From Psammoneis japonica (Eukaryota), in NCBI GenBank assembly GCA_008632985.1, contig QPGO01000155.1, forward strand, positions 1 to 64,000: DNA of 64,000 nt, read 5' to 3'. Below, one piece after another: positions 1-64,000 of the stretch. A program made the position numbers and the translations under genes. The notes under the pieces are model-generated. The model was not told the origin of the DNA. It did no database searches and saw only the letters and a program-made list of their open reading frames with translations. The stretch's first letter is position 1. Every line of letters starts with the position of its first letter.

Positions 1-993
1 GGGCTAACGGCAACCAAATTGCACCCCCAATTGTTTGCCATGTCGTCCATGGCGTCGTTTGGGATTGTTCAATGTGCAAAAGAGCAAGATGCAAGATTCA
101 AGAAGAGTGTCCCAAAAGATGATTGGATGGAAAAGAGGGGAGGTGTTGCAGTTCTGTTGATGGGCTTACGCAGCGCAGAGGAGTTGTGAAAATGAGGTGG
201 AGCAACGCATGTGCTCTCAATCACCAAAGGCACAAAACACGTGCATTCTGCTACACTGCGCATTTGCAGACAAGCCCTGTACGTGCGCAGGGCCCCAAAC
301 ATGTTCCACACGCTGAAAGAGCAGCGTGCGCGCACGCATGCACTCCCACCCAATCGTGTGATTGCACAATGCATTTCATTCAACAACGCAGATGAAGCGA
401 GCACTTTAAAAAAGAACACACATGAAAAATCAAACTTCAATTGTGGAAAATCGTACATTCAAAAGTGAACCAATGAGAACCCAATTTTTGTTCAAGGAAA
501 ATTTTGTTTCAAATGGGAGGAAAGAACAATCTTCTTAACACAACAGGTCGACATGGTTGTCAATGTTCATTTCAGAACAACAATGCTTGATTGAAACAAT
601 GAAAAATGCAGAAAAGAATGAAACTGAACACAATTCAAAAACCGTGCAATGAGAACATGCAACCGTGACTTTGCAATTGTGCCAAACAGATTCGGCTCAT
701 CCCGGACCATCCACAAGCACAAAAAGCTAATTAGAAGTCGAAAACACAATGATGAATTCATTTCATCAGACACAGGTGTCGGTCGTCAGCCTTGATCTCA
801 CAAACACATCGAGGGCAAACACTTCAACAGAGGGAAACACAACCCTGTCAAGGACAGATGTTGCAATGGCGGGGAACACAGGCAGGTGCATTTGAAATCG
901 AAGTGTGTGTTTGGAAGCTAACATTGTGATCTGACATGCAGTGGGAAGCTTCTGTGACAAATCCAGGGGAAAAAAACAGCACCCAATCGTCCA

Positions 994-3728
994 TTGGATT
1001 GTCCAAGAGACTTTTTCCATCCGACGACAGGGGCCAACCCCACAAGACCAGAGGATGCTGCTCTTTTGTGGTCATGCCGAAAGGCACGTCCACAACTTGG
1101 TGAGGTGGAGACGGTGCCGCCCAATGGCAAGAAGATGCTTCAAGAGGTGGCACAAATCCAGTTGTCCCTTCAACAACATGTCATGACTCAACACCTGGAG
1201 GGCTGTCGGAAAAATGCAATGGACAAGGAGGTGGCAATGCCATCAACAAACACCAATCCCGTCACAACAGAAGACTTCAAAAACATTCTGGCAAGCATGG
1301 ACATCACAACCGAGAATCAGCAGCTCGTGCATCAAGTTTTCCACGCCTTTCATCGCAACAGAGGATGGCTGTCTGCTGCCATTGACAAATGGTTCACAGC
1401 AAACAACATGAAGCTCATGCCGCAAGCCACGGACGCTTCCAGCAAACCTCGCAAAATGTGTCGCGATGACAGAGGCGGGTTTGCTGTGGTGGCACGCCAA
1501 GCCAAATGTCAAATGACCAAAACGTTTGTGGAGTTCATGCTGCGGAAAGCAGGCTGGTGTGTGGCAACTACAATGCACAAGAGCAACAAGGAGAATGGAG
1601 GTAAAACACATGTGGCCGTCCCCGCTGCAACCAATGCAGAAACAACAACCAAAGCAAAGTTTTACGTCGTGTCGATGAAACCAGTGGCGGTGAGTTAGTC
1701 GCACATTGTTTGTTTGTCCTTTTGTTGACAACCTTGTTTGGTTGACGACTTCGTTCCCATTTCCGGTCCTTGACAGCAGGAGGAGAACACCGAAGCATCA
1801 AAACAAGTTGCTCAGGGAGCATCCAGCAAAGACATTGACATTGCATCCCTTGTGGACCTTGCAAAAACAGCAAGCATGTTGTCAGAACAAATGGGAGTTC
1901 CGCTGTCCAAGGAAGATTTGCTCCAGTTGATTCGTGGCAGCATGACAGTCACCAGTTCATCCCAAATGGTCAACGAAGAGATTGTGCTTGATCCGCAACA
2001 TGAGTCCGAAACTCAGGTGTCAACACTGACCATGGACACCGCGCTAAATTGCCCATCCGAACCAACGGCAAAGCGGAAGTTAACCGAGAAGGAGAAGGAG
2101 GCAGAGCAAATTCCTCGTCGGGAGCGCAATGATGAACTGGAACCCCTCACCATGGATTTGGATGTCATCGATGGTTGGAGTTCCAATGACGAAGAGTTGG
2201 CAGAAATGGCGTCACAGGTGACTGTGTGATTTGGTGGTCCAATTGCTGTGGTGTTGGATGGCTCTAACCAACTTCCGCTTTGATGCCTTGTTTGGCTTGT
2301 CAGACACAGTTGCCTGGGTCCCCTTGTTGCAGGACGGAACAAGAGCCCGGGAACGCTCCAGCGGTGAGAAAAATGCATTGTGTCATGCGGCTGAATTGCA
2401 CGTCGCTCACACCACTGTTCTTCATGCAAAAGGTTGATGAGATGGACGAGCCAACTGGTGCAAAAGAAAAGGTGAGAGCATTGTCGGTGCTCCAGCTGTC
2501 AATTTGGACTGTTGCTCTAACAGCTCTTTGGCCTCATTGGGTTGCTGGATGCCACACCAAACCATCCCAGACAGTTGAAACACTGGAGCGAGCACAAAAA
2601 AAACAAGTGAGTGAACAGAGTTCTGAGGCAGAGCGCGACACATGGATTGGACCCAACCAATCACACTGCTCCTGCTGTTCTTCATGACCAGGCAAATGAG
2701 GTGGTTGACAGCGGCAATGATGAAAAGGTGAGAGCAATGTCGGTGCTCCAGTTGCAAATGAAACAATTGCTCTGACCACTTTGGGGCGTCATTGCTGGAT
2801 GCCAGACTCAACCATCCCCAGTTGCTGAAATGCCAGAGAGAGCACCACAGAAGATGGTAAGATCACATTGTTTTGCAGCCAATTGTGCAATTCATCGGAC
2901 ACGTCTCACACAGCCATTGTTGTTTGCAATGAGAAAGGTCGAAGAGACAATGGCAAATGGCGCAAATGAAAAGGTGAGAGCATTGTTGGTGCTCCGGATT
3001 GCCATTGAGAAGTTGATCTAACGGCATTCAATGTGTGTCATGATGGCATTTCTTTTGCAGACTCAACCAGCCAACCACTCTAACCCATTGTTAAATCCAT
3101 TGCAAAACAAAGCGGTGAGAATGCATGATGAAGTCGTGCGGATTGTGCCAAGTGTCTTGGAAACATCACCTCTCACTTTGTTGTTTGTTTGCAACAAAGA
3201 CAAAGACAGCAAATGACAAATGCACACACAAAACTGCAACACTCGTTGTGGCTCAAGTGGATCAAACAACTGCTTGCAATTCGCAGGTGTAGAGCAAACG
3301 TCATTGTTGATTTGGCACGCCTGTTGTTGTGTTGTCTTGTTTGCGCACACAAACCAATTGTGTTTGTTTGTTTGTGTTTGCAGTGCAAGTGCGAGGAGGC
3401 TCACTTGTTCCATGCCTTGGTCCATCAAGATGACGGAAAATGTTTTGCTCAAGCGCACTTCAAAACCAACCCACTGTTCCCTGCAAAGTGCTGTGGCGAA
3501 AAGTGTGATGTTGTTTTTGGATCAAGCAGTTACAAGGTTGGACAAAGAAAGGCAGTTTGGGTTTGCATGAACGCATTGAATGGTTCTTGCAATTGCAGGT
3601 TTGCATTGTGTGTGCAGTGTCATCAAAAGACCATGTCAGCTGCATCTAACAAACGGCGCCGAAGGACAACCCGAAACAACAACAACAAACAACAAGGCAA
3701 CGCAACACATGCGCACAACGCAATGTAA
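994..3728 (+). pseudogene. Multi-exon gene of unknown function inside a TpA-depleted domain, probably TE-borne; Cys-rich C-terminal part
   Basis: ORFs 994-1698 and ~1778-2229 can be joined through a GTGAGT (1690)...TTGACAG intron. A later segment reads KCCGEKC...VWVCMNALNGSCNCRFALCVQCH. No family recognised. Confidence 0.3.
2455..3005 (+). repeat. Three dispersed copies of GAAAAGGTGAGAGCA(T/A)TGT(C/T)GGTGCTCC, spaced about 250 bp apart
   Basis: Motif at ~2467, ~2722 and ~2968. Flanks of copies 1 and 2 are also similar (GCTGGATGCCA...AACCATCCC). The motif contains a splice-donor-like AG|GTGAG. Confidence 0.75.
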
Positions 3729-3824
3729 CACACAATTGCTTGGGATTGATTTCACCGGCACAGTCAGGGTTCGGCGGATGTGTTTGTTGACAGAGTCAAT
3801 CGAAGCACAGCTTCGTAAATGACA

Positions 3825-4260
3825 GTTGTTCAGAGCGTCAGCAAATTTGTTCATAGTTGTGATCTGTTTAAATGGAGAGGCTGTCGTTGTCCGTTGTTCA
3901 TTCAGAGCTTTGCTCTAGCCAAATGTCCGTTGTTTGTTCAGAGCTTTGCTCCAATTAAATGGAGATTCCACGGGCATCCAAACATCATTCAGAGTCGTGC
4001 TCTGATTGAATGGACACAATCACAGCAGCGCTCTGAATGTCAGCACAATGCTCTAATTTGCAAATTAATGCTCTGAATGCAATGCTCCAAACAAAATTCC
4101 ATGGCTCCGAATGACCAAATTTACTCTGATTGTGCTCTGCGTGGGCGTCATCGCCTCAATTGACTCTCATTTGCTCTGAATGTCCCACATTGTGTCGGGA
4201 CAATTTAAATGAAGCGTTGCTCAGAATAAAATGTTTGGAGCACAAATGAAGAGAATCTCA
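3825..4260. repeat. Cluster of short CAGAGC / GCTCTGA(A)T motifs in both orientations, resembling transposon subterminal repeats
   Basis: Repeated TTCAGAGC, TGCTCTGAATG, GCTCTAAT and GCTCAGAAT within about 430 bp. Confidence 0.6.
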
Positions 4261-4694
4261 TCTGCAGTGCAGGCAGCTCCGATTTTATGAAAAAAAGGAA
4301 GAGGAAAGAGAGGAGGGGAGAGAGAGGGCTCTACGTTCAATGATCACGCACGACGTCCAGATGCCTGACGCGCCTCAGACCTGCCGCAAAAACAACACAC
4401 AAAAAAAAACAACCATGGCGGCAGCAACTGCCCTGCTCGATTGTTCCGCCAAACCTTTCCCACACAACAAATGAATGTGCCACATTCCATTGTTTTCTCT
4501 GACAAGTGTGTGCAGCAACAGAGAGGCAAGAGAAAATCCAAAAATGGATGAAAACTCCCTTCTGGGATTTTGCTGCTGTTGGTGTTTTCTCACAACTGGC
4601 GCGTTTCAATTGTTGTTCGCACTGGACAGATTGAAGAGCACTTTTGGAAAAGTCCATGTGTGAATGGCAGTCGAGGTTGACCTCGGGCTGGGTG

Positions 4695-4990
4695 GCGTGG
4701 GAGTCGGCGGCGTTGGAGCAGATGGGCTGCATGGTGTCAGTCGGCGGCATGGTGTTCAGTGGCGTTGGAGCGCTGCAGCAGGCGGTGCAGGAGTCAGCGG
4801 CATTGGAACAGCTGGGCAGCATGGTGGGCAGTTTGGCCAGAGCAGCCAGTTTGCGCAGGTCATGTCAGTTGGTGATTCGGCGGCGTTGGAGCAGCTGGGC
4901 AGTGCAGGAGTCGGCGGATGGCGACTCGGCGGCAAGAGCAGGTGGCACTGGAGCAGCCATGCAGCATTGAAGTCGGCGGCATTGGAGTTG
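4695..4990. repeat. Imperfect tandem repeat GAGTCGGCGGC(G/A)TTGGAGCAG(C/A)TGGGC
   Basis: At least 5 degenerate copies; the minus strand translates as repeated CSNAADS/CSNAAES. Confidence 0.8.
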
Positions 4991-5229
4991 CTGGTCGTGA
5001 TTTTGTTGCATTGCATTTGTCACTTTTGTCCTAGAGAGCTCATCTCTGTGGCATTGTTTCTGACTTCAGTCATTGACAGCGTGTTCCACAGGGCACGCAA
5101 GTGCGACTGCTGCAGCCACTCTTGCGACTGCTGCTGCAACTCTTGCTGCTCGGGATCCATTGCAATGCCGAAAAGAGGGGGGAAGGGGAGAACAAACCAT
5201 GATGATGACCGGGCCACATTTGTTGTCTA

Positions 5230-8200
5230 TGAGTTTTCCATCACCAATTCGGGAACTCGGGGTCGACTGCTGTGCCCTTCTCCGTTCGAATCTTCTTCCA
5301 CCTGCGTTGCATTGCATGAGTTCCTGTCTCTTTCGTGTCATCTCCAATGTTGTGTCCATGTGGCACCTCCCAGTGTGGCACCCTGTTGGCATCTGGCACA
5401 GTGCAGCATTCAGCGGCATTTGGCTTGGCCCGTCTGCTGTGGTGCTCTCCCTTTCGCTTCCCACCACAACGGAAACAGCGCTGCGCCTGACGATCGGAAG
5501 CTTTTCTTTTCTTGCTGCTGCTTTCTTGACTTGGGGGAGGTTCCGGCATTCGGATGTGTCGCCTGTGTTGGATGGACTCCATGACAGCTTCATTCCGAGT
5601 CGGTCTGCTCATCTGAACGGGCGGCAAATTCACGGGTTGGGACTCTCCTGGTGCTCCACATGGCTCAGATCGTTCCGGTTGGTTTGAACGCGGTGATCGA
5701 AACGTTTGCTCACGAGCACTCGATTGCACGTTCTTTCGGATTCGCTTTGACTCGCTGCGCACAACAACTGTCCTGAGCACACCAGAGTCGGCACGAACTG
5801 TGCTTGTCTGTCGCATGGTTCTATCCTTGAGTTTCTGTCTCTCTGCCTTTTTGCAATGGGCTGCAAGAATCGGGGCTGTCTTTCTGAACATTTGACGACG
5901 CTCACTGAGGGGTTTCTGCCATTCAGTGTCTACAAGGTCATCCCAATGGGTGTTCATGCGCACAAAATCATACAACCCTCGCTGGTTTCGGTTGTTCTGA
6001 CTGCGTTTTGTGAACTGCGGCAGCACATCCTGAAATAGTTGACTCAGCATGCATTTTAGTTGTCGGCGTTGGAACATTGTGGCGATCGTGCGCAGTGCTG
6101 GAGCGGCGCAGGCGGTGTCAGCAGTGACGACTGCCATCTTCTCCAGCCATCTTGAATGGCAATGACGACACTGTAAGTGCAGATTGCTGAATTGTGCATT
6201 TGTTTTGTCATTGCCGAGTTCTCATCCATCGTCACCAATTTGGAAACTCAGGGTCGACGCCAATGTTGTTGTCCATCGGATCCTCTTCCATGTTCGCTTT
6301 GCAATGTTTGAGTCTACTGCTCTGAGATCATCTCCAGCATTGCAGCCATTTGGCACTTCCCAGTGTGGTGCCCTGGCCTCAGCCGGCACGGTGCAGTGCT
6401 CCGTGCTGTTGGGCTTTGCCCTGCGGTTGTGACGTGGACCATTTCGGGTCAAACCACAACGGAAGCAGCGCTGCGCCTGGCGAGTGGAAGCTTTTCTTTT
6501 CCTGTTTTCATGATGTGGTGGAGGATCTGGCATTCGGATGTGTCGCCTGTTAGCTGCCAATTCCAACACAGCTGCATTTTGAGCCGGTCTGCTTGTGTTT
6601 GCAGGCGGCAAATTCATGGGCTGGCACTCTCCTGCAACCCCAAACGGCTCAGACCTTTCTGGTGGGTTTGGAAGAGGATCACGAAAGGTTTGTGCACGAG
6701 CTGTTTCTTGTGTGTCTGCTCGGATTCTATCTGTCTCCCTGCTCACAATGACTGTTCTCTCGACGCCAGTGCTGTCACAAGTGGTTGTGGTTTGCCGCAC
6801 AGTGCGAGCTTTGAGTTTCTGTCTCTCGACCTTTTTGTGATGTGCCGAGAGAACAGGCACTCGCCAAGTGGTTTTTGCCATTCAGCATCTGCCAGATCAT
6901 CCCAGCATGTGTTCATGCGTGCAAAGTCATGCAAACCCCGCTGGTTTTGGTTGTTTTGTGCTGCTTTTGCGAATCTTGGGAGCACTTCCTGAAACAATTC
7001 GGCTTCACAGCCGGTGACCTGAGTGACCGGAACACCATCCCTTCCATCTCGTTCCGCTGGAATTCCAAAGCTTCGGACATGGCGTTTTCTGCTGTTGCTG
7101 CAGGTGACTCGGAATCCTCCACATTGATTGTTGCCATGCACCGGTCCTCAATCGGCGTGCATGCACCTCCTCCGGCATGTCCAAAGTCATTGGGGTTTAC
7201 AAGGTCGCCTTGGTGCTGATGCACTCCATGCTCATAGTTTGCGGTTTGCATGTTGTGGACTGTTTCGTGATTGTAGAATTGCGAGTGCTCGGAAGGTGCA
7301 AGTCCCCTTTCTGCTGCGCGATCATGGTTCCATCGGTGTGCAAATGTGGCCAGAAGACAAACCGCTGGCAAGGGGGATGAATGACATGCCGCTAGAGCTT
7401 CTTTCAGGTGCTTGTGAAAGCCTTCGAGCTGCGAAGTGCCACGAATTCAATGCATGGTTGTTTTCCCACTCGACGGATTGGCTCGGATGTGGCAGCAGTC
7501 AAAGCCTGGTCTGTCGCTCACACATCCTTTTTGGACATGTTTGACAAAGTTGAAATGAACTTTCCAGGTTTCCTTTGAAAAGAGTGGTTCCCCCGACTTG
7601 GCGCACTTGACATTGGCAATGAATCGAACCATGCTCTTGATTCGTGCCAAAAGATCGCGGGGTGGGGGCATTGTTCTCTCGATGTCCGCCAAGGTCTTGG
7701 ACGACGGCCGATTCATCCTCCTTTGCACCTCCTTCTTTGCTTCCTCGTGATTGTTGTGCCACCTGCCATGCACATGGTTTGTGAGCTTTGCCGCCAGCTT
7801 CTCGACTTCAAGGTCCAGCCGCTCCTGATTGATTGGCAGCATGGAGTCACGAAGCAGTCCCGACGCTTCTTCATAAAAACCATGCTTCTTCTTCCAAGTG
7901 CTTTTGACATCCTTGAGAAAATGGAAGCAATCCCCTTTCACACAGTTTCGTGCGAACACCTCGGCAGCTGCTTCATCCCCAGCAAGCAACTCAATGTCGC
8001 CGTCCTCGTGATCATGCTGCAGCACTGCAAACTGGAGCTCATCATCATCGTTTTTGTTTCGAGAGCCATGTGAGTCTGGGAACTCACTCAGGCTGCTTCC
8101 TTCTGGCAGGTGCCCTGTTTCTTCTTCGTTTGAGCTGAGGTCTCCCCTTGGTGAGCTGGAACCGGCAGGGTTGCTGCAGCATCACATTTCGTGTGAAAAA

Positions 8201-10024
8201 TTGTGCGAACCCAGATGACGTCGGCCAAATTCAGCTCCAAGATTTCCTTCCCTCCGCCAAACACTCCTCATCACGCGCTTCGCTCGCCAAGAACAAAAAA
8301 CAACGCAACGACACAATGATGGTGTCGCTCCCAAGAGCAGCAGAAGCAATGCGGCATTTGAGCCACAAGCTGCCACAAGCAAACACACCACACGCCAAGG
8401 CACCAACAGAGAGACAGCTCGGGTGCTGATGCTGCAGACAGCATTCAGAAGAGACAGCACAGGCGACGAAGCCACCCTCGTTGACCCAACTTCTCGACTC
8501 GAATGGTCGACTCAGCTTGTTCTCTTGGTGGCTGTGGCATCCTTTGGTGGACCCAAATGCAAGTTTCTCCTTGAAGATTTGTTTTTGCTCGAAAATGACT
8601 TCAACAGTGGTTCTGCTTGCTTTGGTCGTGCACCGTGCCGGTTCCAGGTTGCGAGTGCTCGGAAGGTGCAAGTCCCCTTTCTGCTGCGCGATCATGGTTC
8701 CATCGGTGTGCAAATGTGGCCAGAAGACAAACCACTGGCAAGGGGGATGAATGACATGCTGCCAGAGCTTCTTTCAGGTGCTTGTGAAAGCCTTCGAGCT
8801 GCGAAGTGCCACGAATTCAATGCATGGTTGTTTTCCCACTCGACGGATCGGCTCGGATGTGGCAGCAGTCAAAGCCTGGTCTGTCGCTCACACATCCTTT
8901 TTGGACATGTTTGACAAAGTTGAAATGAACTTTCCAGGTTTCCTTTGAAAAGAGTGGTTCCCCCGACTTGGCGCACTTGACATTGGCAATGAATCGAACC
9001 ATGCTCTTGATTCGTGCCAAAAGATCGCGGGGTGGGGGCATTGTTCTCTCGATGTCCGCCAAGGTCTTGGACGACGGCCGATTCATCCTCTTTTGCACCT
9101 CCTTCTTTGCTTCCTCGTGATTGTTGTGCCACCTGCCATGCACATGGTTTGTGAGCTTTGCCGCCAGCTTCTCGACTTCAAGGTCCAGCCGCTCCTGATT
9201 GATTGGCAGCATGGAGTCACGAAGCAGTCCCGACGCTTCTTCATAAAAACCATGCTTCTTCTTCCAAGTGCTTTTGACATCCTTGAGAAAATGGAAGCAA
9301 TCCCCTTTCACACAGTTTCGTGCGAACACCTCGGCAGCTGCTTCATCCCCAGCAAGCAACTCAATGTCGCCGTCCTCGTGATCATGCTGCAGCACTGCAA
9401 ACTGGAGCTCATCATCATCGTTTTTGTTTCGAGAGCCATGTGAGTCTGGGAACTCACTCAGGCTGCTTCCTTCTGGCAGGTGCCCTGTTTCTTCTTCGTT
9501 TAAGCTGAGGTCTCCCCTTGGTGAGCTGGAACCGGCAGGGTTGCTACAGCATCACATTTCGTGTGAAAAATTATGCGAACCCAGATGACGTCGGCCAAAT
9601 TCAGCTCCAAGATTTCCTTCCCTCCGCCAAACACTCCTCATCACGCGCTTCGCTCGCCAAGAACAAAAAACAACGCAACGATACGATGATGGCGTCGCTC
9701 CCAAGAGCAGCAGAAGCAATACGGTATTTGAACCACAAGCTGCCACAAGCAAACACACTATATACCAAGGTACCAACAGAGAGATAGCTCGGGTGCTGAT
9801 GCTACAGACAGTATTCAGAAGAGACAGCATAGACGACGAAGCCACCCTCGTTGACCTAACTTCTCGACTCGAATAGTCGACTCCGCTTGTTCTCTTGGTG
9901 GCTGTGGCATCCTTTGGTGGACCCAAACGCAAGTTTCTCCTTGAAGATTTGTTTTTGCTCGAAAATGACTTCAACAGTGGTTCTGCTTGCTTTGGTCGTG
10001 CACCGTGCCGGTTCCAGGTTGCGA
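5230..10024 (-). mobile_element. Rearranged DNA-transposon relic with DDE-type transposase fragments (MULE/ISL3-like DxxH; RGTSQLEGFH...RWN type)
   Basis: Minus strand reads DCFHFL...IERTMPPPRDLL...GEPLF...HVQKGCVSDRPG...MH*IRGTSQLEGFHKHL...HRWNHDR. The C-terminal part is present twice in diverged form (5241-6137, 6222-7141) and the core is present twice (7447-8025, 8817-9395). Confidence 0.55.
7279..10024. repeat. Near-identical 1370-bp tandem duplication (7279-8648, 8649-10018) with TTGCGA microhomology at the junctions
   Basis: Matching ORFs are offset by exactly 1370 bp (7447/8817, 7723/9093, 7950/9320). TTGCGA occurs at 7279, 8649 and 10019. Confidence 0.95.
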
Positions 10025-12339: not shown

Positions 12340-12504
12340 AGCGAATAAATCTGGATGTGGAGGTGCGGCTACATCCACAGCTCCCTTACCGTTCGTAAGC
12401 TTAAAGATTCGTTATCGTATCATTCTCTCTAACGTTATAAGCTACTCTTCTCTCTTGTGGCTTGTACTAGTACCGTCTGTACGACCACCGCATCGGATTT
12501 TACT
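12340..12504 (-). repeat. 3' LTR (165 bp), TpA retained
   Basis: Direct repeat of 18868-19019. On the minus strand it is preceded by a short purine-rich tract (GCGGGGACCG) and a CGAGTCGG...CCGACTCG hairpin. Confidence 0.9.
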
Positions 12505-12651
12505 CGGTCCCCGCGAGTCGGCATTACTAGACCGACTCGTACTCTCGAAACATCCTCTTGTTAAGAGGTAAAACACACCCAGTTAGCCGCCAATTAGTTT
12601 GGCCTGGGAGGTCGCAAGACGTGGACGCGAGTCACAGGCCCTGGACCTTGG

Positions 12652-15600
12652 CTACCAAAACAGAAATGAACAAAGCTGCCATCGCTTCTCACCCTTCAAA
12701 ACTTTCGTCAACAGATCCGCAAGATTGGTCTCAGTGTCTTCCTTTCCGACCCTCGTGATCCCAGCCGCAACCGCTTCCCTCACTGAATGGTAGTTGATCG
12801 CGTTGTGCTTCTTGTGCAATGTGGATTTGGGAACACTTACATTCTTTACCACGCCACGATTGTCACAAAACACATTCGCCGGCCCATCAACCGGGACCCC
12901 AAACATGCGAAGCTTGCAACGCAGCGTGACAATCATCTCCTTACAAATCCGCATTGCCACTGACTCGCTCCCAAATGCAGACGTTTCCACTGTATTCTGC
13001 TTCTTGCTGAACCACATGGTTGGTGCATTGTTCACAAAGAGGACAACCCCAGAGTGCGACCTGCGAGTGACGACATTCCCAGCATGATTCGCATCGACAA
13101 ACGCACTGACAGTTGCCGGATTCCCGTGCGCCTTCGGCATTCTGGGCGGCATTTCCTCCTCGACTTCTCTGCAGAACTCCGTCCAGTCCGCCTTGGTGTT
13201 AAACAGTGACTCATCGATCTCAGGCACCTTCGGATCGCAACCCACTTGGCCCATGTTTGGGTGCTTCTTCATGTGCGCGAAGACGTGATGCAGCGCCTCC
13301 AAACGCCCTTTCCTCGGGTTTGCCTGACATTGAGACAACAAAGACACTTCAAGCAGCACATCAATGCGCCCAAGTTCAATCGCCCACCTTGCTGTCCCAA
13401 TCAGCTGCAAGTGTCGCGACAACAGTTCTGGCCCCAACTCATCCGTCACGTCCAACTCCGGTTTGCAGTTTGCTGGAAACGGGCCCTTTGCGTTGTTCTT
13501 GAGAACCGCACCATTGCGGTCCTCCGTCAGCAGGTCCTCCACTGTCTTAATTGCATTCTTGATGTGCGCCCATGGAGAGCTGGCCCAAATCATTCGCCCA
13601 TCTGGAGTCTGTGCCTTCTCGATCGTGGCGCCCAGGCATGTCTCAGGTTCACCTTCGCTTCCGGGTTTGATTTTGCAATGCGACAAAATTGCTTCGCAAA
13701 TTGACTTGCCTTGGTGTGATGCGATCAACACATCATCGACACAGACCAAAAGCATCTTGTGGTGCTCGTGTCCGTCCCCGCGAGCCGCGGCATGCAGGCA
13801 AACGTCTGGATCTGCTGGAGTCGGCTCGAAACCCACATCGCGGAGTGCAGAGGCAAATGCTGATCGCCAAGAAAACCCCGCGCTCTTCAGTCCGTAAAGT
13901 GCTCTGACAACAATTAACACGCACCCTTTGAACTCACCGCACTCAGTGCCACCCTCAAACCATGTCTTCTCAGCACACGGTGCATTCAAATGTGCATTCT
14001 CCAGGTCAATTGCAGTGACATCAACGCCGTTGAGCGCCGCCAACATGAGAGCAATGCGAATGCTGTCTCGGGAAACCACACTGGAGCACACAATCAAATC
14101 TGGGGCTGCAGCAGCATGTCCGCCCGCAACAAACCTTGCCTTGCGAGTGAAGCCCATCTCAACGTCGAAGACCATGTGACACTGGATTTCCTGGTGACCT
14201 CGCAACGCATTGCTCTTGCCCTTGCGAACCTCCTCGGGTGTCTCACCTTTGTGTTTGCGCCAGGCGACCTTTGCCTTGCTCATTTCCTTGTTGATTGCTC
14301 GTGCCCAGTAATCTGTCCCCGTTTCTCTGTCGATCCGGAGTGCATCATCCACACTCTTTGGCAGCATGACCCCAAACTTGTGCATCGTGCGCCAACACTT
14401 TGACTTGGCCTTGGAAATGGTCCGGCTGCGCTTGCGCAAAACATGTGACACCCTCCAAGCAAACGCTGGTTCATCAGAGATCCGGTTTGCCACTGCGCAT
14501 TCGTCAACTTCAATCGGGTTAGACGCCTTGAGGTCTTTTAGCTTGACCCAGCTTGTGCTCCCATCGCGCCAGAGTGCCAGAAGCTCCCATCCCTTTGTTG
14601 TGGCCTTTTGTTTAACCTGCCCACCGGCTGTCGTGACCGTGCCATCTGCGGCTTTCCGGTGGTCCTGAATCTCCTGCAAGATGGAGAATTGACGCCCCTC
14701 CAAGTCGACCTGAGCATGCATGTTCTTGGCAATGATGTTTGCAGCACACTTGTCTGTCGTGCCATCGGCAAACTCGACCTCATGCTCCCTCATGTCAAAC
14801 AGTGAGTGCTGGTGCCGCCGACCCAGGGGCCTGCCATCGTTGCCGCGCGCTTGCTTTGTGACTGCCCCACGCCTTTCACCCTCGGTGCCAACGTCCATGA
14901 TGAGCTCCATGCCAAGATGTTGGTCGACAACCTCCTCGTCATTGTTGTCTGGGCACTCACCATCCTGCAGCATGTCACCGCACTCCTCGTCGCTTGGGGT
15001 TGCGCCCCCTTCGCATTGGATCCCATCGCTTCCATCGATTGCAACATCGTCCAAACAGAAAGCCGGTGCTGCCTCGTCGCCCTCAACCACAAAGTTCGTG
15101 TCGTCAAGTTGCCAAGTCAAGGCCTCATTGAAATTGTTGATCTGCTTCCGCTTGTCCAACTCAACACAATCGGCCTGCACAACGTGCTCCACTGAGGTTT
15201 TCGACACCAACTCACCGCTCTCGGTGATGATCCAGCAGCACATGTCGGACCCAACCTTGTGCGACATGCCAAGCCAATGCCCAAGCCGCCTCGGATCGTC
15301 TGTTGCATTTGGCTTGTCTGGTCGGTCCCACCACCATGCTAAGTCGCAGAACCTAAAATCCAAGCACTCACCAATCTCTGGTGTTTGCCCAGTCACTTCC
15401 TCATGTCCGGTCCTGCAGTCACGTCCTCTGGCCATGTGCGACACCAGCTCTGACTCACACACAAGTCCAAAATCCCATGATCGCTTTGGCACTTTCTTCT
15501 TCATCATCCTGGGTCTCCAGCGCTTCACAAGGAATCCAATCTCGCGTTCCGCCACACAGTTCTGATTCTTGCGTCCCTGTTCCGAGTTTTGGAGCTGAGC

Positions 15601-15810
15601 GCGCATGCGCCTTGCGTGTTTGACGAACTCTGTGTTCTTGCCGGTGAACTCTCCAGCACCGTCCGTGAGCAATGTCTCAGGCACACCAACGTCATCCGTA
15701 AAGTCGATCAATGATTGCCCTGAGTCTGACCTGGCTGCCATGGGAACAACTTTGACAAACTTCCCCTGAGTGCAAACGTTCGCGCACGTGTTTCCCAGTG
15801 ATGACTTCAC
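12652..15810 (-). CDS. Copia pol (integrase core, reverse transcriptase, RNase H); catalytic YVDD reads CVDD
   Basis: LLTDGAGEF (integrase); TRKARFVAGGH, RALYGLKSAG and LLVCVDDVL (RT); AFVDANHAG...RRSHSG, FCDNRGVV and NLADLLTK (RNase H). Confidence 0.93.
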   Translation of the reverse strand: MKSSLGNTCANVCTQGKFVKVVPMAARSDSGQSLIDFTDDVGVPETLLTDGAGEFTGKNTEFVKHARRMRAQLQNSEQGRKNQNCVAEREIGFLVKRWRPRMMKKKVPKRSWDFGLVCESELVSHMARGRDCRTGHEEVTGQTPEIGECLDFRFCDLAWWWDRPDKPNATDDPRRLGHWLGMSHKVGSDMCCWIITESGELVSKTSVEHVVQADCVELDKRKQINNFNEALTWQLDDTNFVVEGDEAAPAFCLDDVAIDGSDGIQCEGGATPSDEECGDMLQDGECPDNNDEEVVDQHLGMELIMDVGTEGERRGAVTKQARGNDGRPLGRRHQHSLFDMREHEVEFADGTTDKCAANIIAKNMHAQVDLEGRQFSILQEIQDHRKAADGTVTTAGGQVKQKATTKGWELLALWRDGSTSWVKLKDLKASNPIEVDECAVANRISDEPAFAWRVSHVLRKRSRTISKAKSKCWRTMHKFGVMLPKSVDDALRIDRETGTDYWARAINKEMSKAKVAWRKHKGETPEEVRKGKSNALRGHQEIQCHMVFDVEMGFTRKARFVAGGHAAAAPDLIVCSSVVSRDSIRIALMLAALNGVDVTAIDLENAHLNAPCAEKTWFEGGTECGEFKGCVLIVVRALYGLKSAGFSWRSAFASALRDVGFEPTPADPDVCLHAAARGDGHEHHKMLLVCVDDVLIASHQGKSICEAILSHCKIKPGSEGEPETCLGATIEKAQTPDGRMIWASSPWAHIKNAIKTVEDLLTEDRNGAVLKNNAKGPFPANCKPELDVTDELGPELLSRHLQLIGTARWAIELGRIDVLLEVSLLSQCQANPRKGRLEALHHVFAHMKKHPNMGQVGCDPKVPEIDESLFNTKADWTEFCREVEEEMPPRMPKAHGNPATVSAFVDANHAGNVVTRRSHSGVVLFVNNAPTMWFSKKQNTVETSAFGSESVAMRICKEMIVTLRCKLRMFGVPVDGPANVFCDNRGVVKNVSVPKSTLHKKHNAINYHSVREAVAAGITRVGKEDTETNLADLLTKVLKGEKRWQLCSFLFW

Positions 15811-15855
15811 CTTTGAAATTAGGGCATCGGCATGCCACGTCCCCTTTAGTCGCTT

Positions 15856-16938: not shown

Positions 16939-16956
16939 AGCTGTTGCCCCACACCT

Positions 16957-18853: not shown

Positions 18854-18866
18854 CCTGGCTCTGATA
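18854..18866 (-). other. Primer-binding site, tRNA-iMet-like (TATCAGAGCCAGG)
   Basis: Immediately inside the 5' LTR. Matches the familiar TGGTATCAGAGCCAGG PBS without the TGG. Confidence 0.75.
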
Positions 18867-18867
18867 A

Positions 18868-54705: not shown

Positions 54706-54959
54706 GGTTCGATTTGGTATGGTTATCAACACCACTCAAAACTCTGACACTGTTTTGTGCACCCGGTAGTTTTGTTCGCTCGGAGAAATTTTGTTCGTGT
54801 TTTGCAGATCTACGTAGAATCTTACGTGTCTCAGTACGAAGGTCATCGTTCTCGAAGATGCTTCCGAATCCCGAATCTGCGGCACGAGCTCTATGTTCCA
54901 GCTCTATCCTGTGGCGAGATCCTCGTTCCCTTTGCGGACACTTGCCGCAGTCTACCGCA

Positions 54960-57595
54960 CTCTGCTGCATTCATTTGAACTTTGATGCCGAAGACAACAT
55001 GGAAAGTTGTTGGTGACATTGAAGCATTGCTTCTTTTGTTCTTGTTCTCTCTGCTGGTGGTTGCAACTGTTGCAGCAAGCATGCCTTTCTTGCAATCATC
55101 TTCCTCAGCCGGCACCCTCAACTGCTGTCTTTGGCACAGGTTGTGCAGCTGGTTGCAGGGTTGCTGGCTGTGTTCAAAGCAAAAAGTGTGAGTGTGAATG
55201 GATCATGTGGCTTTGTTCTACAAAGACTCCATCAGTGCACACAATGACAGTCTCTCTGCTGCACCAGCGCTGCAGACCCCCCCCATGCTTCTGTTGGTGC
55301 GGCCAAGGACTTTTCTGTGGAGCCGGAGTGTCGGAGCAAGTTAGACCAGGGCATTGGAGAACCCAGAATGAGTTGAAGCCTGCAGACATTTGTCTCCTGA
55401 TGTGGCCGTCTGATGACAATGTGTTTTTTGTCATCACACTGTTGTCCCCGAAACACGAAGCATTCCAACTCTTTGGAGTGCATCATGTGGCACACGAGCT
55501 GTTGTCATTGGTGCTGGGGAGCATCTGTTAAAACCAAATCCACTTGGTGAACAAAGTTACATTGAACAATCTTCTGGGCAAACCACAGCCACACAAGCAG
55601 CCAGGATGTGTGTTTTGAGAGCGGACACGAAGCTTCACAAGATGTTCCCTTTTGCCGCCATTCGCACATTGGTTCAACACAGAGTGTCAGCCAGTCAAGG
55701 CCAAATGCACTGAGTTCCCAAGAAACACATGGTGACTTGACAGAGGAGGAAAGTGCTTGTGGCACACTGCAAGCATCCAACCATGCAAACAGATGCTCGG
55801 TGGAGCTTTTCCATTGCACTGCTTGCACGTGCTTTGGAGGAGGGTTTGCACCACTTGAGATCCCAGAAATGTGAGTGTCCTGAGCAGTGGGTCCATGAGA
55901 GTGCATCTGGTGCTGCAGCATGGACAATGCTCAATGGGGTCAAGGCCTGGAATGCACTGCTGGCCGCCACTGGTGCAGCCAATTGCTTGTTGAGAGTTGC
56001 TCACACACTCATTGTCCAGCTGCTTGACTTGAAGATGGTGCTGCCAACAACTTTTTTGGCACAGAGCTGGTCTTGTTGGACTTGATGAATCTAAATGAAG
56101 GCACAACTCTCAATCACAAGGTGACCTCAGTGATTTGTGGTGTGAGGTTGAAGTTTCTGTGCTGCATTGACACATGGTTTGATGCTTGTCATTGAGGTTG
56201 GGTCTGACACAAGTCATGATCCCAAGAATCTGAATGACTTGCAATGCAGATGCCATTTTCAAGGCCACCACAGGCACCACTTGGGTTGAACGGGAAAGAA
56301 ATTTGTCTCAAAGAGCACTTTTTCTTCAGTGCTTTGGTCTGAAAAAGATGTGTGCTGCAGGATGAGATTCCCTGTGGCTGGGCTGGGCTGTGCAAACAAC
56401 TTGAAAAACTCTTGAGTTCTTTGAAGGGGGCTTGGGCACACTGGTTGCACATGAGCATTGTCTGCTGTGCTGGGGCTCAATGAAGTTTGCAGATTGTTGT
56501 TGTGTGCTTTTTCTGCAATTGCAGATGCTTGGAGGAGCTTGAGAAAACCGCTGTCAAGATCGCACAACACATTGTCTTTTGCAACGAAAAGATGGCACTG
56601 GAGCTGACTCCAATGCCACAGAGCCACAATCATCAAAGCCAACTGCAAATGTTGAGAGCAAGCAAAAGCAGAGAGGAGATGCGTGGCTGCACATGTGCAG
56701 CTCCTCTTTCTTGCAAATTCCCAATTGTGTCATCTGCTCAAATTGACAGAAATCAAAATCTGAACAAGAGTGTGAGTTGTGCAAAGTGCAACTTGGTGGT
56801 GAGACAGTCACAATTGCAAACACAACAAACAGACCTCAGCCCAGAGCACTCCTGTGTGGGACATGGAGAAAACACAGAAGCCAGCCAAAATGTGCCAGCA
56901 AGCCAACGCTCATTTGGCCCATGGGGGAGCTCAGGCTTGAGGTGCTCAATGAGCAACTCTGACTCTAACAAGTGGGGTCTAAGCCACCTTGCAACCTTCA
57001 CAAAAAAGGCTTCCCTCTGCCATGCAGCCACGACATCTTGGTGTCCATGTGACATCAACAGGCGCACTCAGCGTGCACAAAAAAAATGCAGCGGCACCAC
57101 TCTAAAAAGGTGTGATGGCTGGCAATGCCTGCCGTTCCATTTGACCTTTGCAAGCACTTGATGCACACGCAAGAAGTGAGTTTGCTGGGAGGGCACATCA
57201 TGGCGGCACATCCCCCCCGTTGGAGTTGGATGCCCCGAGACACCACACAGACCACTTTGACAGGCAATGTGGTCACTTTGCCTCAAGCCAATTTTCAACT
57301 TCAAAAGACACAGATGAAAGCAATCAAGAACCTGAGCCTTCAGGTTCACATGGAAGCTGTGTGCTGCAGATGACGCTCAATGACTTTTGACTTCAGAAGA
57401 TCTGATGACGCTCGTCTCCCAGCCAACAAGAGCGAAAGATCGACTCACACCTTTGTGATGCAACCATGGCAATCAAGATGCAGCAACATGTTTCAAAAGG
57501 TCCAAATGGCAATTCATGTGTGCTCCATGCAACAATGAGCAAAAGTGATTCGCAATTCACTTGGCCCTGGTTTGCTGTTTTCAATTTTTTCAAGA
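54960..57595. other. TpA- and CpG-poor domain, unidentifiable relic
   Basis: Only scattered TA in about 2.6 kb; flanks have normal composition. Confidence 0.8.
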
Positions 57596-57793
57596 CGTCC
57601 GAGCTCCGAATTCCGCGAACTCGGAGATTTCGTCCCTTATTTTCGCTCCGCCGCCCAAAGGCCTAGCCATAGCCCGCGCGCCGCCGCCGCTGAAACACAA
57701 ATAACAAAAAATAACTACCGTAATGCGATGGCGCTGACAGCTTGAATAAGCTGACATTAGAAGCGGCAGCTAAGAAAAACCCCTTGCTAAGCC

Positions 57794-61836: not shown

Positions 61837-62289
61837 TTTGATTGGTATTTTCTGGTATATATAGTTGAGTACTTGTAGTACTTGTAGTCTCGTCTTTGCA
61901 ACTGAACAGCGATGTATGATGCGTTATTGTTGTTGCATTGAGCGAGTCGAAACTTTGAGGCCGCTAGGTGTGAATCTTGCAAAGCAAAAATTCGAAAAAA
62001 TGGACGGACTAGCTTCAGCGTGCGATTCGTACTGCTGTCTACGTGGTAACCCGCGGAAAAAAAACGAAAAAATGGAGTCATTCAAATTTTTTTTAAACTT
62101 CAGGGAGATAAACAAACATAAAATGTCATTTAGGGAAACACTCTTATTTATAAGATTCAATAGTGAAGGATAATTATAAAACGTTTCGATAGTACGACTA
62201 GAATATAAAGATCAAGAAATGATTACTTACATTTATCACATTGAAATTTCAAAAAAATCAAACGGCTCGAAAAGGAAAGGGGGCTTTTT

Positions 62290-64000
62290 CGCGGAGAGAA
62301 TCATCATGATCCTGCCCGCTGCCTGCAGCACCTCCATCAGCATCCTTCGGCAACTCCACATCAGTGAGAAGAAACGATTGTAAAAATGATCAAGAGAAAG
62401 TGGCACAAAGTTGTCTTTGAGGGGTTGCAAGCCAGTCATCATGCAAACTGTTCGGCGCTGCATTGGGTGTGAGTCCCTTGTGGTGTGTGTGTCCACTTTG
62501 GCACTGCAAGCCTCTTCATCAAAGCTGTTGCTGCTGGCTCTTTGAATTCAACCCAGCCATGATGGCAAGAGTCAAGCAAGTGCTGGCTGTTTGAACATCC
62601 AGAGACAAGGAGGTGGGTGGTCAAACTTGCTGACCCAACGTTGTCTTCAGTCTTGGGGCAAAGAGCTGGTGCCAAAAGAACACCCCCAATGGAACCTCAT
62701 TTTTGGCACGTGGTTGTCATTTGGCAATCATGTGAGGACTTTCTTCTTTCAAGCTGGCTCTGTCTGGAACCCCTCTTCTTCCAGGGCTTGAATCTCTGCC
62801 AACCACAAAGGCAACACAGCCCACTTTTTAGAGAATGGCAACATGGCGACACCACACCATTGGAGTCATCGACTGGTGCTGCAACAGCTTGTGCTTTCTT
62901 CTTCTTGGGTCATGCAATGACAATGTTCTCCTCATCATGGACATCAATGTTGGCATCATTGTCACATCCAAGCCGTGCACAAACAAGCAACAGCATTGCT
63001 TGGAGCTTCTTCCAATCCGCGCCAGCAAAAGCAGCCAGCTCAACAGCCAGTCATTGGCAGCACCAAAATGATTGCTCCTTTGTTCAGAGAATGTTGCTTT
63101 GCCCTTCTGACATTTAAAAAAATCAAGAGCAAGGCTGAAGAAAGACTCGTCAAACAGCCACTTCTTGAGCCATTTTGACAATGCTGAAGAGTGTGATTTT
63201 GCAATCCCCAGGGAGGCAAACAAAAGATTGAGAAGGAGGCGGAGTGATTGCATGCTCACAGGTGAAGACCAGTGGTGCCACTCTAATTTCTTCTTGTTTC
63301 TTGTCAAGCATCATTCTTGTGATCTCACTTGATTTAAATGTCTTGAGTTTTCCCAGACCCCAGATCAAAACCACCAACAGAGTGAGATGTTGCACTCACA
63401 GCTTTGAAAGGGTTGCACAATGGCTGCAGCAGTTTTTGCTTGTCTCTCAAAACTCTGAGAGCTGAAGTGGTGCCCTCATGTGCACCATGTGGACAATGCA
63501 CACACATGCCAAAACAATCACAAATGATGGAGCCCTCCTTCTTTGACAAAAATTTAGAAAAAGAAACCCCACACACCACACAGAGAAGGCAGAGCAACTC
63601 AAGCCAATGCATGAAGAAGCAACCCGACAATGCATCTGCACCTCCAGAACTTGCACAGCCCAGCATGCAAGCAGACAGAGGTGTTGTTCACTCCACACAA
63701 GACTTTGTCAGACTCAACAAGGCCAAGGGGGCTTGCTTTGCCACAGCTGCCTGTGGCTGCAACAGTTGACTGAGCCTGGGTGAGGGAGTGGCTGCAGCAG
63801 CTGCTGGGTTGGCAGAGGGGTTTACAAACCCAGCTCAACCCCTGAAGGTGCTAGAAGAACTCTGAAGTGCTCTTGGATTTGTCTGCCATGGTGCAATTGT
63901 GAGGTTGTTGCTGTGAGTTGCATGCATGTGTTGAGTGGAGCAAGAGCAAGCAGCACTGCCAAGCTGCTTCTGGCACTCTGTGGCTCAAGTTTGGCACTTG
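62290..64000. other. TpA- and CpG-poor domain running off the window end
   Basis: Same compositional signature, starting just after an AT/TA-rich stretch at 62080-62240. Confidence 0.75.

What the first reader, a model, noticed from the sequence alone, without database searches (positions are those of the whole stretch)
1..64000. Candidate reverse-RIP genome-defence system: domain-restricted TpA->TpG/CpA (A-to-G, both strands) hypermutation
Seen in sequence: six domains (~1-10.0, 12.65-26.95, 32.3-41.1, 42.8-44.4, 54.96-57.6, 62.3-64 kb) are almost free of TpA and rich in TG/CA, while gene islands are normal. The domains hold the transposons. Paired copies and conserved codons show TA changing to TG or CA, and because TA is palindromic this equals A->G on either strand. 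Established knowledge: fungal RIP does the opposite (CpA->TpA), and 5mC decay gives CpG->TpG/CpA; neither removes TpA. Inference: a process targeted to repeats or heterochromatin mutates A in 5'-TA context in genomic DNA. Candidate mechanisms are a TadA/ADAT-like DNA adenine deaminase (TadA-derived editors prefer TA) or Pol-eta-type error-prone repair (A->G at WA) recruited to methylated DNA. The enzyme is not visible in this window. I do not know of a published description, but could not search.
Basis: partly seen in the sequence, partly recalled or inferred. Interest (0 to 1): 0.96.

Follow-up and report, generated by a model that had tools for sequence, protein, structure and literature searches.

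The report
TpA-erasing hypermutation blocks in a diatom
In this diatom genome, blocks of silent DNA holding transposons and a dead gene copy have had nearly every TA step rewritten to TG or CA, the same odd mutation pattern recently measured in a distant alga, so it may be a widespread genome defence whose enzyme is still unknown.

Summary
Six blocks (38.2 of 64 kb) have TpA observed/expected of 0.00-0.10, against 0.58-0.64 in the gene islands, with step-like borders. Loss of TA (39.2/kb) plus CG (20.8/kb) equals the gain of TG+CA (61.9/kb).

The direction of change is shown three ways:
- 25 of 28 TAs in unconverted sister copies read TG, CA or CG in the converted copy.
- 23 of 25 conserved Tyr codons of a Copia element now read Cys or His.
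- High-depth paralogues in the same genome keep TA.

A k-mer assembly of raw reads reproduces the blocks with 0-1 differences, so an artefact is unlikely. The host is a raphid pennate diatom.

A 2026 preprint measured the same TpA>TpG/CpA hypermutation in integrated viruses of Bigelowiella natans. It does not mention diatoms.

New here:
- the diatom host;
- near-complete conversion of retrotransposons and a beta-COP pseudogene;
- a 5'-TAY-3' flank rule that fits a one-strand-at-a-time model;
- CpG decay in the same blocks.

The enzyme is unknown; adenine deamination is my leading inference.

The parts
1..9500 (.). TpA-free block 1, which runs off the window start. TA o/e 0.093, CpG o/e 0.67. 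No recognisable protein domain.
7279..8654 (.). Tandem copy B, wholly inside block 1. 2 TA left.
   Evidence: 97.97% identical to copy A over 1376 bp, 28 mismatches, no gaps.
8649..10024 (.). Tandem copy A. Its tail 9501-10024 lies outside the block and keeps 16 TA, all 16 of which are changed in copy B.
   Evidence: in the tail, 17 TA-linked, 4 CG-linked and 2 other mismatched bases in 524 aligned.
12340..19019 (-). Full-length Copia-type LTR retrotransposon. LTRs at 12340-12504 (unconverted, outside the block) and 18868-19019 (converted). The gag-pol frame 12655-18441 is open apart from two in-frame stops.
   Evidence: (RVT_2); homologue P0121 maps to 16866-12655 in one HSP at 62% identity.
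12600..26952 (.). TpA-free block 2. The segmentation starts it at 12848, but the dense TA run ends at 12595. TA o/e 0.10, CpG o/e 0.72.
21469..24008 (+). Coatomer beta-subunit (beta-COP) pseudogene covering residues 199-976 of a diatom homologue, with frameshifts and 5-6 stops. None of the homologue's Tyr positions is still Tyr.
   Evidence: (Adaptin_N, E 6e-12); of 16 Tyr positions, 11 codons now start TG, 3 CA, 2 other.
26001..27334 (.). Repeat family at the edge of block 2. High-depth paralogous contigs in the same run carry TA where this copy has TG or CA.
   Evidence: of 19 listed differences, 8 are paralogue TA, 2 paralogue CG, 9 other.
32326..40910 (.). TpA-free block 3, also CpG-poor. 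TA o/e 0.031, CpG o/e 0.23.
37073..39227 (+). Old Copia remnant: RT/RNase H fragments at 37073-37285 and 38994-39227.
37979..38991 (.). Two in-block repeat copies (37979-38323 and 38648-38991). 18 adjacent TG<->CA double differences among 74 mismatched positions indicate that the copies were converted independently.
42790..44397 (.). TpA-free block 4. 0 TA in 1608 bp, CpG o/e 0.29. One 9367-base contig of run X1 bridges it together with both flanking islands.
54954..57637 (.). TpA-free block 5. TA o/e 0.046, CpG o/e 0.29.
62235..64000 (.). TpA-free block 6, which runs off the window end. TA o/e 0.068, CpG o/e 0.18.

Best explanation
A real DNA-level hypermutation process in a raphid pennate diatom converts the two A:T pairs of TpA steps to G:C (TA>TG or TA>CA, rarely both, giving CG). 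It acts after insertion and only inside discrete blocks that hold retrotransposons, other repeats and a dead gene copy. Shown: it hits each strand independently and has a three-base footprint 5'-T-A-Y-3'. The implied hit rates by the base 3' of the A are T 2.76, C 1.68, G 0.64, A 0.39. It runs at least about 20 times faster per site than CpG decay in the same DNA and hundreds of times faster than other substitutions. It removes about 90-100% of TA, so proteins are wrecked by missense changes (Tyr to Cys or His). It also removes TAA and TAG stops, so reading frames stay open. It carries the same signature as the TpA hypermutation measured in silent integrated viruses of Bigelowiella natans. Inferred: the blocks are silent, CpG-methylated chromatin, and that state recruits the activity. 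Inferred, at about 0.45 on its own: the chemistry is enzymatic deamination of adenine to hypoxanthine in DNA by a TadA/ADAT-like or toxin-derived deaminase.
For: Signal and borders. Mass balance: TA -39.2/kb and CG -20.8/kb against TG+CA +61.9/kb. The largest trinucleotide gain is TGC/GCA at +31.6/kb, with TAC/GTA at -25.0 and TAT/ATA at -22.7. Polarity: 28 ancestral TAs in the two sister-copy pairs became 12 TG, 12 CA and 1 CG, with 3 kept. Of 25 conserved Tyr columns in Copia, 15 are Cys, 8 His and 2 Tyr, while Gly changed at 2 of 48, Asp at 3 of 41 and Phe at 1 of 22. No Tyr is kept in beta-COP. The family is normally TA-rich: 118 of 120 homologues have 2.75% Tyr or more against 0.28% in the window, and 80 metagenome loci have median TpA o/e 0.73 with none below 0.2. 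Post-insertion and position-bound: one LTR and one tandem-copy tail escaped. Relative speed: TA 16/16, CG 4/30, other bases 2 in 524. One-strand model: four parameters fit 16 NTAN contexts (chi2 6.9, 12 df, p 0.87; LRT against uniform loss 184, p 1e-39). The model predicts the product at 23 of 30 strongly predicted polarised sites (p 0.005). TG 3866 against CA 3910 overall, and no strand runs. Not an artefact: contigs assembled from run X1's reads match 32021-34626 with 0 differences, 38880-41601 with 1 and 41819-46000 with 1. Precedent: bioRxiv 10.64898/2026.01.13.699255.
Against: No enzyme, DNA-modification data or chromatin data could be examined, because no whole genome is held. Run X1 comes from one sample that may be the source of the assembly, so it excludes a base-calling or assembly error but is not biological replication. 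The survival model takes the gene islands as a proxy for the ancestral composition of the blocks. A>G on one strand cannot be told from T>C on the other, so the deaminase chemistry is not distinguished from thymine-side chemistry. Step-like borders are not what simple heterochromatin spreading predicts. Four of the six blocks hold nothing identifiable as a transposon. Seven of the 30 strong product predictions failed.
Confidence: 0.8

Rival explanations
1. Same hypermutation, but the chemistry is on the thymine. A TET/JBP-like oxygenase or another modifier marks T in 5'-R-T-A-3' within silent chromatin (5hmU/5fU-like), and the modified base mispairs with G at replication, giving T>C. This would be the TpA counterpart of 5mC decay at CpG.
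For: The data are exactly symmetric. The mirror parametrisation of the flank model has the same likelihood. CpG decay, also a by-product of a base modification, sits in the same blocks. That 5hmU favours TpA in dinoflagellates and that 5fU mispairs with G are recalled, not tested here.
Against: No evidence for such a modification in diatoms was seen in any call. The one paper that measured the signature proposes adenine deamination. Near-complete conversion needs a very high mispairing rate.
Confidence: 0.15
2. Targeting is by sequence homology or repeats (RIP-like recognition or small RNAs) rather than by chromatin position.
For: The blocks hold Copia elements and repeated families. The beta-COP pseudogene is presumably a duplicate of an essential gene. 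Step-like borders fit element-wise recognition better than spreading.
Against: The tail of tandem copy A is 98% identical to copy B yet untouched, with 16 of 16 TA kept. The 3' LTR of the Copia is untouched while its 5' LTR is converted. Other copies of the 26.4-26.8 kb repeat family in the same genome keep TA. In B. natans the main target was single-copy.
Confidence: 0.2
3. Sequencing or assembly artefact: a modified base in these blocks is miscalled, and the true DNA has TA.
For: Conversion is nearly 100% and the borders are sharp, as a systematic miscall would be. All three runs come from one sample and one study.
Against: 31-mer contigs made from raw reads, at word depth about 58-108 and up to 315 kb long, reproduce the blocks with 0-1 differences. 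One contig bridges island, block and island. I infer that noisy long reads could not give such contigs. Paralogous contigs in the same run read TA at the same positions, so TA is callable in this sequence context. Tyr-less, Cys/His-rich Copia ORFs occur as separate entries in public protein sets.
Confidence: 0.03
4. RNA editing (ADAR/ADAT-like) of retrotransposon transcripts, fixed by reverse transcription.
For: ADAR-type enzymes prefer U before the edited A (as cited). The best-preserved target is a retrotransposon.
Against: Both strands are hit equally (TG 3866, CA 3910). The two LTRs of one element differ, and the border cuts through the element. A tandem duplicate and non-retroelement DNA are converted. 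There are no strand-coordinated runs.
Confidence: 0.02
5. Error-prone repair by a Pol-eta-type polymerase at WA motifs, recruited to methylated DNA.
For: Pol eta makes A>G errors at TA (recalled).
Against: AA is not targeted: 2 of 43 AA changed against 16 of 16 TA in the tandem tail, and AA+TT differ by only -7.7/kb against -39.2/kb for TA. Transversions are almost absent, 1 of 28 mismatches in the tandem pair.
Confidence: 0.02
6. The elements are natively TpA-free, or TA is removed by selection.
For: None beyond the composition itself.
Against: 118 of 120 homologues and all 80 metagenome loci are TA- or Tyr-normal. Sister copies and paralogues keep TA. A pseudogene with stops and frameshifts is converted too.
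Confidence: 0.01

Closest known systems
TpA hypermutation of integrated NCLDV and virophage DNA in Bigelowiella natans (Mettrop et al., bioRxiv 10.64898/2026.01.13.699255). I read the abstract, both parts of Results, the Discussion and term look-ups.
   Same: Almost only A>G and T>C changes, all at TpA, giving TpG or CpA. Confined to discrete regions of foreign, silent DNA. About 1000 times the background rate there, compared with TA 16/16 against 2 other changes in 524 bases here. That genome also has clusters of TpA-poor, CpA+TpG-rich 1-kb windows and low-TpA ORFs enriched in RT and DDE domains.
   Different: The host is a rhizarian, not a stramenopile. The main targets there are giant-virus and virophage insertions that are still TA-rich (Rho TpA 0.45; 3.3% TpA). 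Here retrotransposons, repeats and a pseudogene are converted almost to completion (o/e 0.00-0.10). Its main text has 0 occurrences of 'flanking', 'context', 'trinucleotide' or 'CpG'. The TAY rule, the one-strand model, the co-located CpG decay and the step borders are therefore additions from this window. There the rate was measured directly; here it is inferred from sequence.
Repeat-induced point mutation (RIP) of ascomycete fungi
   Same: Fast, context-specific transition hypermutation that disables duplicated or mobile DNA in the genome itself.
   Different: The direction is opposite: RIP makes TpA from CpA, lowers GC and creates stop codons. Here TpA is destroyed, GC rises (0.48-0.52 against 0.45-0.48) and stops are removed (TAA+TAG 3.4/kb against 18.5/kb). 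RIP mutates both copies of a duplication; here a duplicated copy outside a block escaped.
5-methylcytosine decay (CpG>TpG/CpA) in methylated transposons. Methylation of diatom TEs by DNMT5a: PMC9998398, passages only.
   Same: Gives the same products (TG/CA), is present in the same blocks (CpG o/e 0.18-0.29 in four blocks, 0.67-0.72 in two), and is restricted to the blocks (4 of 30 CG changed in the in-block tandem copy).
   Different: It cannot remove TpA. It is much slower here than the TpA process (4/30 against 16/16).
TadA/ADAT tRNA adenosine deaminases and TadA-derived DNA base editors
   Same: A>I next to a 5' U/T. A pyrimidine 3' of the target A recalls the UAC of the TadA substrate loop (recalled, not tested).
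   Different: No such protein could be looked for, because no genome is held. The natural enzymes act on RNA loops. Domain-wide action on chromosomal DNA is unproven in any organism except as proposed in the B. natans preprint.

Membership tests
TpA-specific A:T>G:C hypermutation of silent foreign DNA (B. natans type) | Changes are almost exclusively A>G / T>C transitions | tested here: met
   Tandem pair: 27 of 28 mismatches are transitions. In the two sister-copy comparisons there are 27 TA-linked, 6 CG-linked and 4 other mismatched bases.
TpA-specific A:T>G:C hypermutation of silent foreign DNA (B. natans type) | Mutated A is preceded by T (TpA>TpG; TpA>CpA on the other strand) | tested here: met
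   25 of 28 ancestral TAs converted, to 12 TG, 12 CA and 1 CG. 23 of 25 conserved Tyr codons changed to Cys or His.
TpA-specific A:T>G:C hypermutation of silent foreign DNA (B. natans type) | Confined to discrete regions of foreign or mobile origin, with the rest of the genome normal | tested here: met
   Six blocks with step borders. Copia elements in two blocks. But four blocks are unidentified, and one holds a host-gene pseudogene.
TpA-specific A:T>G:C hypermutation of silent foreign DNA (B. natans type) | Directly measured, ongoing rate about 1000 times background | not testable with these tools
   Only indirect evidence: TA 16/16 against other bases 2/524 between copies 98% alike. The internal tail of a tandem duplicate was converted after the duplication.
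TpA-specific A:T>G:C hypermutation of silent foreign DNA (B. natans type) | Target region is transcriptionally silent | tested here: inconclusive
   One RNA-derived run was laid. Missing cover is not evidence. No chromatin data.
Fungal RIP | C>T at CpA creating TpA; AT-enrichment | tested here: not met
   Opposite direction: TA lost, GC gained.
Fungal RIP | All copies of a duplicated sequence are mutated | tested here: not met
   The tandem-copy tail and one LTR escaped. Paralogues keep TA.
5mC decay | Loss confined to CpG | tested here: not met
   It explains the CG loss of 20.8/kb but not the TA loss of 39.2/kb.
Retro-copied ADAR/ADAT RNA editing | One-strand A>G over the whole retro-copied element, with both LTRs alike | tested here: not met
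   Both strands are hit. The LTRs differ, with 10 of 13 TA changed in one only.
Pol-eta WA signature | A mutated at both AA and TA, with transversions | tested here: not met
   AA 2/43 against TA 16/16. 1 transversion in 28 mismatches.

The most novel reading that the evidence does not exclude
The diatom and the rhizarian Bigelowiella share one ancient, dedicated genome-defence system. In this reading a chromatin-guided enzyme edits A:T pairs at 5'-TAY-3' directly in chromosomal DNA. It disables transposons, integrated viruses and stray gene copies by missense change alone while erasing stop codons. It would then be a SAR-wide or older counterpart of RIP and APOBEC, and the TAY footprint plus presence/absence across diatom genomes would identify the enzyme.
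Probability: 0.4. Interest if true: 0.9.

Novelty: new member of a known kind. Interest (0 to 1): 0.78.

Why it matters
Until 2026 no cellular process was known that specifically destroys TpA in genomic DNA. The only report is one preprint on one rhizarian alga, with the enzyme unknown.

Finding the same signature close to saturation in a diatom has several consequences:
- It shows the process is not a peculiarity of one species or of integrated viruses.
- It extends the process to retrotransposons and pseudogenes.
- It gives a sharper biochemical footprint (5'-TAY-3', one strand at a time, no processive runs) against which candidate deaminases or thymine modifiers can be tested.
- It places the phenomenon in a group with transformable, CRISPR-ready model species.

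There is also a practical warning. Converted elements lose TAA and TAG stops and keep long open frames, so gene predictors will call them as genes. Tyr-less, Cys/His-rich 'proteins' already sit in public databases.

Tried and rejected
- Whole-genome search for the enzyme or for genome-wide maps: no genome is held.
- tRNA and Rfam scans of the window: 0 hits.
- Pfam on 20 long ORFs and on 145 of the 172 ORFs of at least 110 aa. The 27 left out were 4 already scanned, 14 overlapping the Copia frame and 9 overlapping annotated genes. No deaminase, polymerase or DNA-modification domain was found. ORFs under 110 aa and intron-split genes were not covered.
- Expression: no listed run is on record as RNA. 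Run X2 is spliced: its contigs skip three pieces that are GT..AG introns on the minus strand. X2 gave no cover over most of blocks 3 and 4. That is missing cover only and is not used as evidence of silence.
- Metagenome relatives: 80 of 562 confirmed Copia loci were kept. None is converted like the window. L040 (TpA o/e 0.25) and L043 (0.30) are 90.65% alike. Their 87 mismatched positions include 11 TA<->TG/CA, 7 TG<->CA doubles and 20 CG-linked changes. This is suggestive of partial conversion but too weak to claim.
- Strand-coordinated runs of TG or CA products: not found, |z| < 1.5 in four series. TG/CA ratios are heterogeneous at 0.5-1 kb scale in the blocks (chi2 132.8, 74 df), which I attribute to codon context and not to processivity.
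- Earlier notes of this scan: nothing on this genome, and nothing with this signature in a eukaryote.
- Literature: 9 searches found no report of TpA hypermutation in a diatom or any other stramenopile. Subscription journals and bioRxiv supplements are not covered.
- GC-biased gene conversion: rejected, because A:T>G:C is confined to TpA.

Full report
**What is there.** The window is nuclear DNA of a raphid pennate diatom. A triose-phosphate-transporter-family gene at 41545-42720(-) has its best named relatives in Craspedostauros, Cylindrotheca, Nitzschia and Fistulifera at 57-68% identity.
- 1-9500
- about 12600-26952
- 32326-40910
- 42790-44397
- 54954-57637
- 62235-end

Together they cover 38,247 bp. 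TpA observed/expected is 0.00-0.10 in the blocks and 0.58-0.64 in the five gene islands. TG and CA o/e are 1.55-1.87 in the blocks. Borders are steps: TA occurs every 20-30 bp, then stops. Block 42790-44397 has no TA at all in 1608 bp.

The surviving TAs are scattered singly, apart from one small cluster at 20317-20336. The islands carry ordinary genes: ribose-5-phosphate isomerase, a TPT-family transporter, MgtE, lipin/LNS2, an ion channel, a urea transporter and an Exo_endo_phos protein.

**It is a conversion, and its direction is TA to TG or CA.**
- Mass balance. Relative to the islands the blocks lack 39.2 TA and 20.8 CG per kb and hold 61.9 extra TG+CA per kb. The largest trinucleotide gain is TGC/GCA (+31.6/kb) and the largest losses are TAC/GTA (-25.0) and TAT/ATA (-22.7). 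This also explains the excess of GpC.
- Sister copies. A tandem duplicate (7279-8654 and 8649-10024) is 97.97% identical with no gaps. Where the second copy leaves the block (9501-10024) it keeps 16 TA, and all 16 are changed in the in-block copy. Only 4 of 30 CG and 2 other bases in 524 differ.
- LTRs. The two LTRs of a Copia element behave the same way. The one outside the block (12340-12504) keeps 13 alignable TA, of which 10 are changed in the one inside (18868-19019). Over both pairs, 28 ancestral TAs gave 12 TG, 12 CA, 1 CG and 3 unchanged.
- Outgroups. Of the 120 listed homologues, I aligned the Copia polyprotein with the 40 best. That alignment has 25 columns where Tyr is conserved. 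The window has Cys at 15, His at 8 and Tyr at 2. By contrast Gly changed at 2 of 48 columns, Asp at 3 of 41 and Phe at 1 of 22.
- Family state. The family itself is not TA-poor. 118 of 120 homologues have 2.75-4.82% Tyr against 0.28% here. 80 related loci from metagenomes have median TpA o/e 0.73, and none is below 0.2.
- Paralogues. High-depth paralogous contigs of the 26.4-26.8 kb repeat, from the same sequencing run, read TA at 8 of 19 listed differences where the window reads TG or CA, and CG at 2 more.

**It is not an artefact.** One run (X1) holds 95% of the sampled 31-mers of 36001-46000. Its contigs were assembled from raw reads at word depth about 58-108, the longest being 315 kb. They match 32021-34626 with 0 differences, 38880-41601 with 1, and 41819-46000 with 1. 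The last is a single 9367-base contig crossing island, block and island. I infer that such contigs cannot come from noisy long reads, so a modified base miscalled by a pore is very unlikely. The run may be from the assembly's own sample, so this is not biological replication.

**It acts on DNA in place, not on RNA and not by homology alone.**
- Both strands are hit equally: TG 3866 against CA 3910 in the blocks.
- The border cuts through a retrotransposon, leaving its 3' LTR untouched.
- A repeat copy outside a block escapes.
- In-block repeat copies were converted independently: 18 adjacent TG<->CA double differences among 74 mismatched positions at 37979-38323 against 38648-38991.
- In the tandem duplicate, the first 852 bp of both copies are already TA-free and differ at only 5 positions, while the internal tail differs at every TA. 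The simplest history is a duplication across an existing block border, followed by conversion of the piece that became internal. That implies a recent or ongoing, position-dependent process (inference).
- The blocks do not hold only transposons. 21469-24008(+) is a beta-COP (coatomer beta) pseudogene with frameshifts and 5-6 stops. Of 16 Tyr positions of the homologue, 11 codons now begin TG, 3 begin CA and none is Tyr.

**Footprint.** TA survival depends strongly on the flanks. Counts in the blocks, against the number expected from the island frequencies with no loss, are:

| Context | Found | Expected |
|---|---|---|
| ATAT | 0 | 105 |
| TTAA | 25 | 55 |

In the model, each of the two A:T pairs is hit independently at a rate set by the base 3' of the A. 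It fits all 16 NTAN contexts with four parameters. Per-strand survival is T 0.063, C 0.186, G 0.526 and A 0.675. The fit has Pearson chi2 6.9 on 12 df (p 0.87), and the likelihood-ratio test against uniform loss gives 184 (p 1e-39).

The model was derived from survivors only, yet it predicts which product arose at polarised sites: 23 of 30 strong predictions were correct (p 0.005). Products show no same-strand runs (|z| < 1.5 in four series). The unit event is therefore a single A:T>G:C change at 5'-TAY-3' (equivalently 5'-RTA-3' on the other strand), accumulated one by one. The data cannot say which base of the pair is attacked.

**Relation to CpG decay.** CpG o/e is 0.18-0.29 in four blocks and 0.67-0.72 in the two blocks that hold the young Copia and the 98% tandem copies. 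CpG loss is also specific to the blocks (4 of 30 in the tandem tail). I infer that the blocks are CpG-methylated silent chromatin, and that the TpA process is at least about 20 times faster per site than 5mC decay. Diatom TEs are known to be CpG-methylated by DNMT5a (PMC9998398, passages read).

**Consequences for the elements.** The process never creates a stop codon and removes TAA and TAG: 1.93 and 1.46 per kb in the blocks against 9.82 and 8.66 outside. The Copia gag-pol frame of about 1929 codons has only two in-frame stops, yet its RT scores only E 1e-13 in Pfam and its integrase is not recognised. Inactivation is by missense changes.

**What is known.** bioRxiv 10.64898/2026.01.13.699255 (version dated 2026-04-14) reports that in mutation-accumulation lines of the chlorarachniophyte Bigelowiella natans:
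- 231 of 302 new point mutations fall in two integrated viral regions;
- 230 of those are A>G or T>C, all at TpA;
- the rate there is about 6e-7, some 1000 times background;
- hypermutation was seen in only 11 of 15 lines.

That genome also has 124 clusters of TpA-poor, CpA+TpG-rich windows and 324 low-TpA ORFs enriched in RT and DDE domains. The authors propose an ADAT2-like DNA adenine deaminase. I read the abstract, Results, Discussion and term look-ups.

The paper has no mention of diatoms or stramenopiles and no flank-context or CpG analysis in its main text. Nine literature searches found nothing on diatoms. This window is therefore a new member of a very recently described kind.

**Beyond this window.** Four further Copia ORFs in public protein sets have 0-0.37% Tyr and raised Cys and His: P0183, P0463, P0481 and P0456. 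They are 37-53% identical to one another, 41-60% identical to the window's Copia, and none is encoded by this window. They came from 1 of 120 nearest homologues and 3 of 150 cluster representatives. P0183 has His at 8, Cys at 5, Phe at 1 and Tyr at 2 of 16 conserved Tyr columns. Their organisms are unknown, and they may or may not come from this species.

**Verdict.** The mutational reading is supported. The claim of no prior description is superseded, the Pol-eta option is rejected, and the enzyme and the targeting signal remain open. My leading mechanism is adenine deamination in DNA at 5'-TAY-3', recruited by silent and probably CpG-methylated chromatin (about 0.45 for the chemistry, about 0.8 for the process as described). 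Thymine-side chemistry is the main rival.

Noticed in passing
window 30460-32139 (-): A 560-aa open frame with no Pfam match. Run X2's spliced (RNA-derived) 2184-base contig covers 30066-32248 and ends 78 bp before block 3 begins.
   Followed up: no
window 28028-29900 (-): Run X2 is listed as 'DNA?', but its contigs skip three pieces of 99, 118 and 69 bp that are canonical GT..AG introns on the minus strand. It is therefore RNA-derived, and a multi-intron gene lies here with no Pfam match.
   Followed up: partly
window 51971-52550 (+): The urea-transporter (UT) domain is split over two overlapping frames (51971-52504 and 52179-52550). This points to an intron or a frameshift.
   Followed up: no
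L046 and L047 (metagenome Copia loci): Two related Copia copies, 80% identical, have CpG o/e 0.03-0.06 but TpA o/e 0.38-0.47. That is extreme CpG decay with at most mild TpA loss, so another organism silences the same TE family with a different mutational outcome.
   Followed up: partly
window 20317-20336: The only cluster of surviving TAs inside a block: five within 20 bp. It may be a refractory context or a recent microsatellite-like gain.
   Followed up: no
window 61399-61923 (-): An ORF with a fibronectin type II (fn2) domain match (E 1.2e-05). This domain is mostly known from animals.
   Followed up: no
window 12655-18441 (-): Because the process removes TAA and TAG, the dead Copia keeps a frame of about 1929 codons with only two stops. 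Gene callers will report such elements as proteins, and Tyr-less Copia 'proteins' are already in public sets (P0183, P0463, P0481, P0456).
   Followed up: partly
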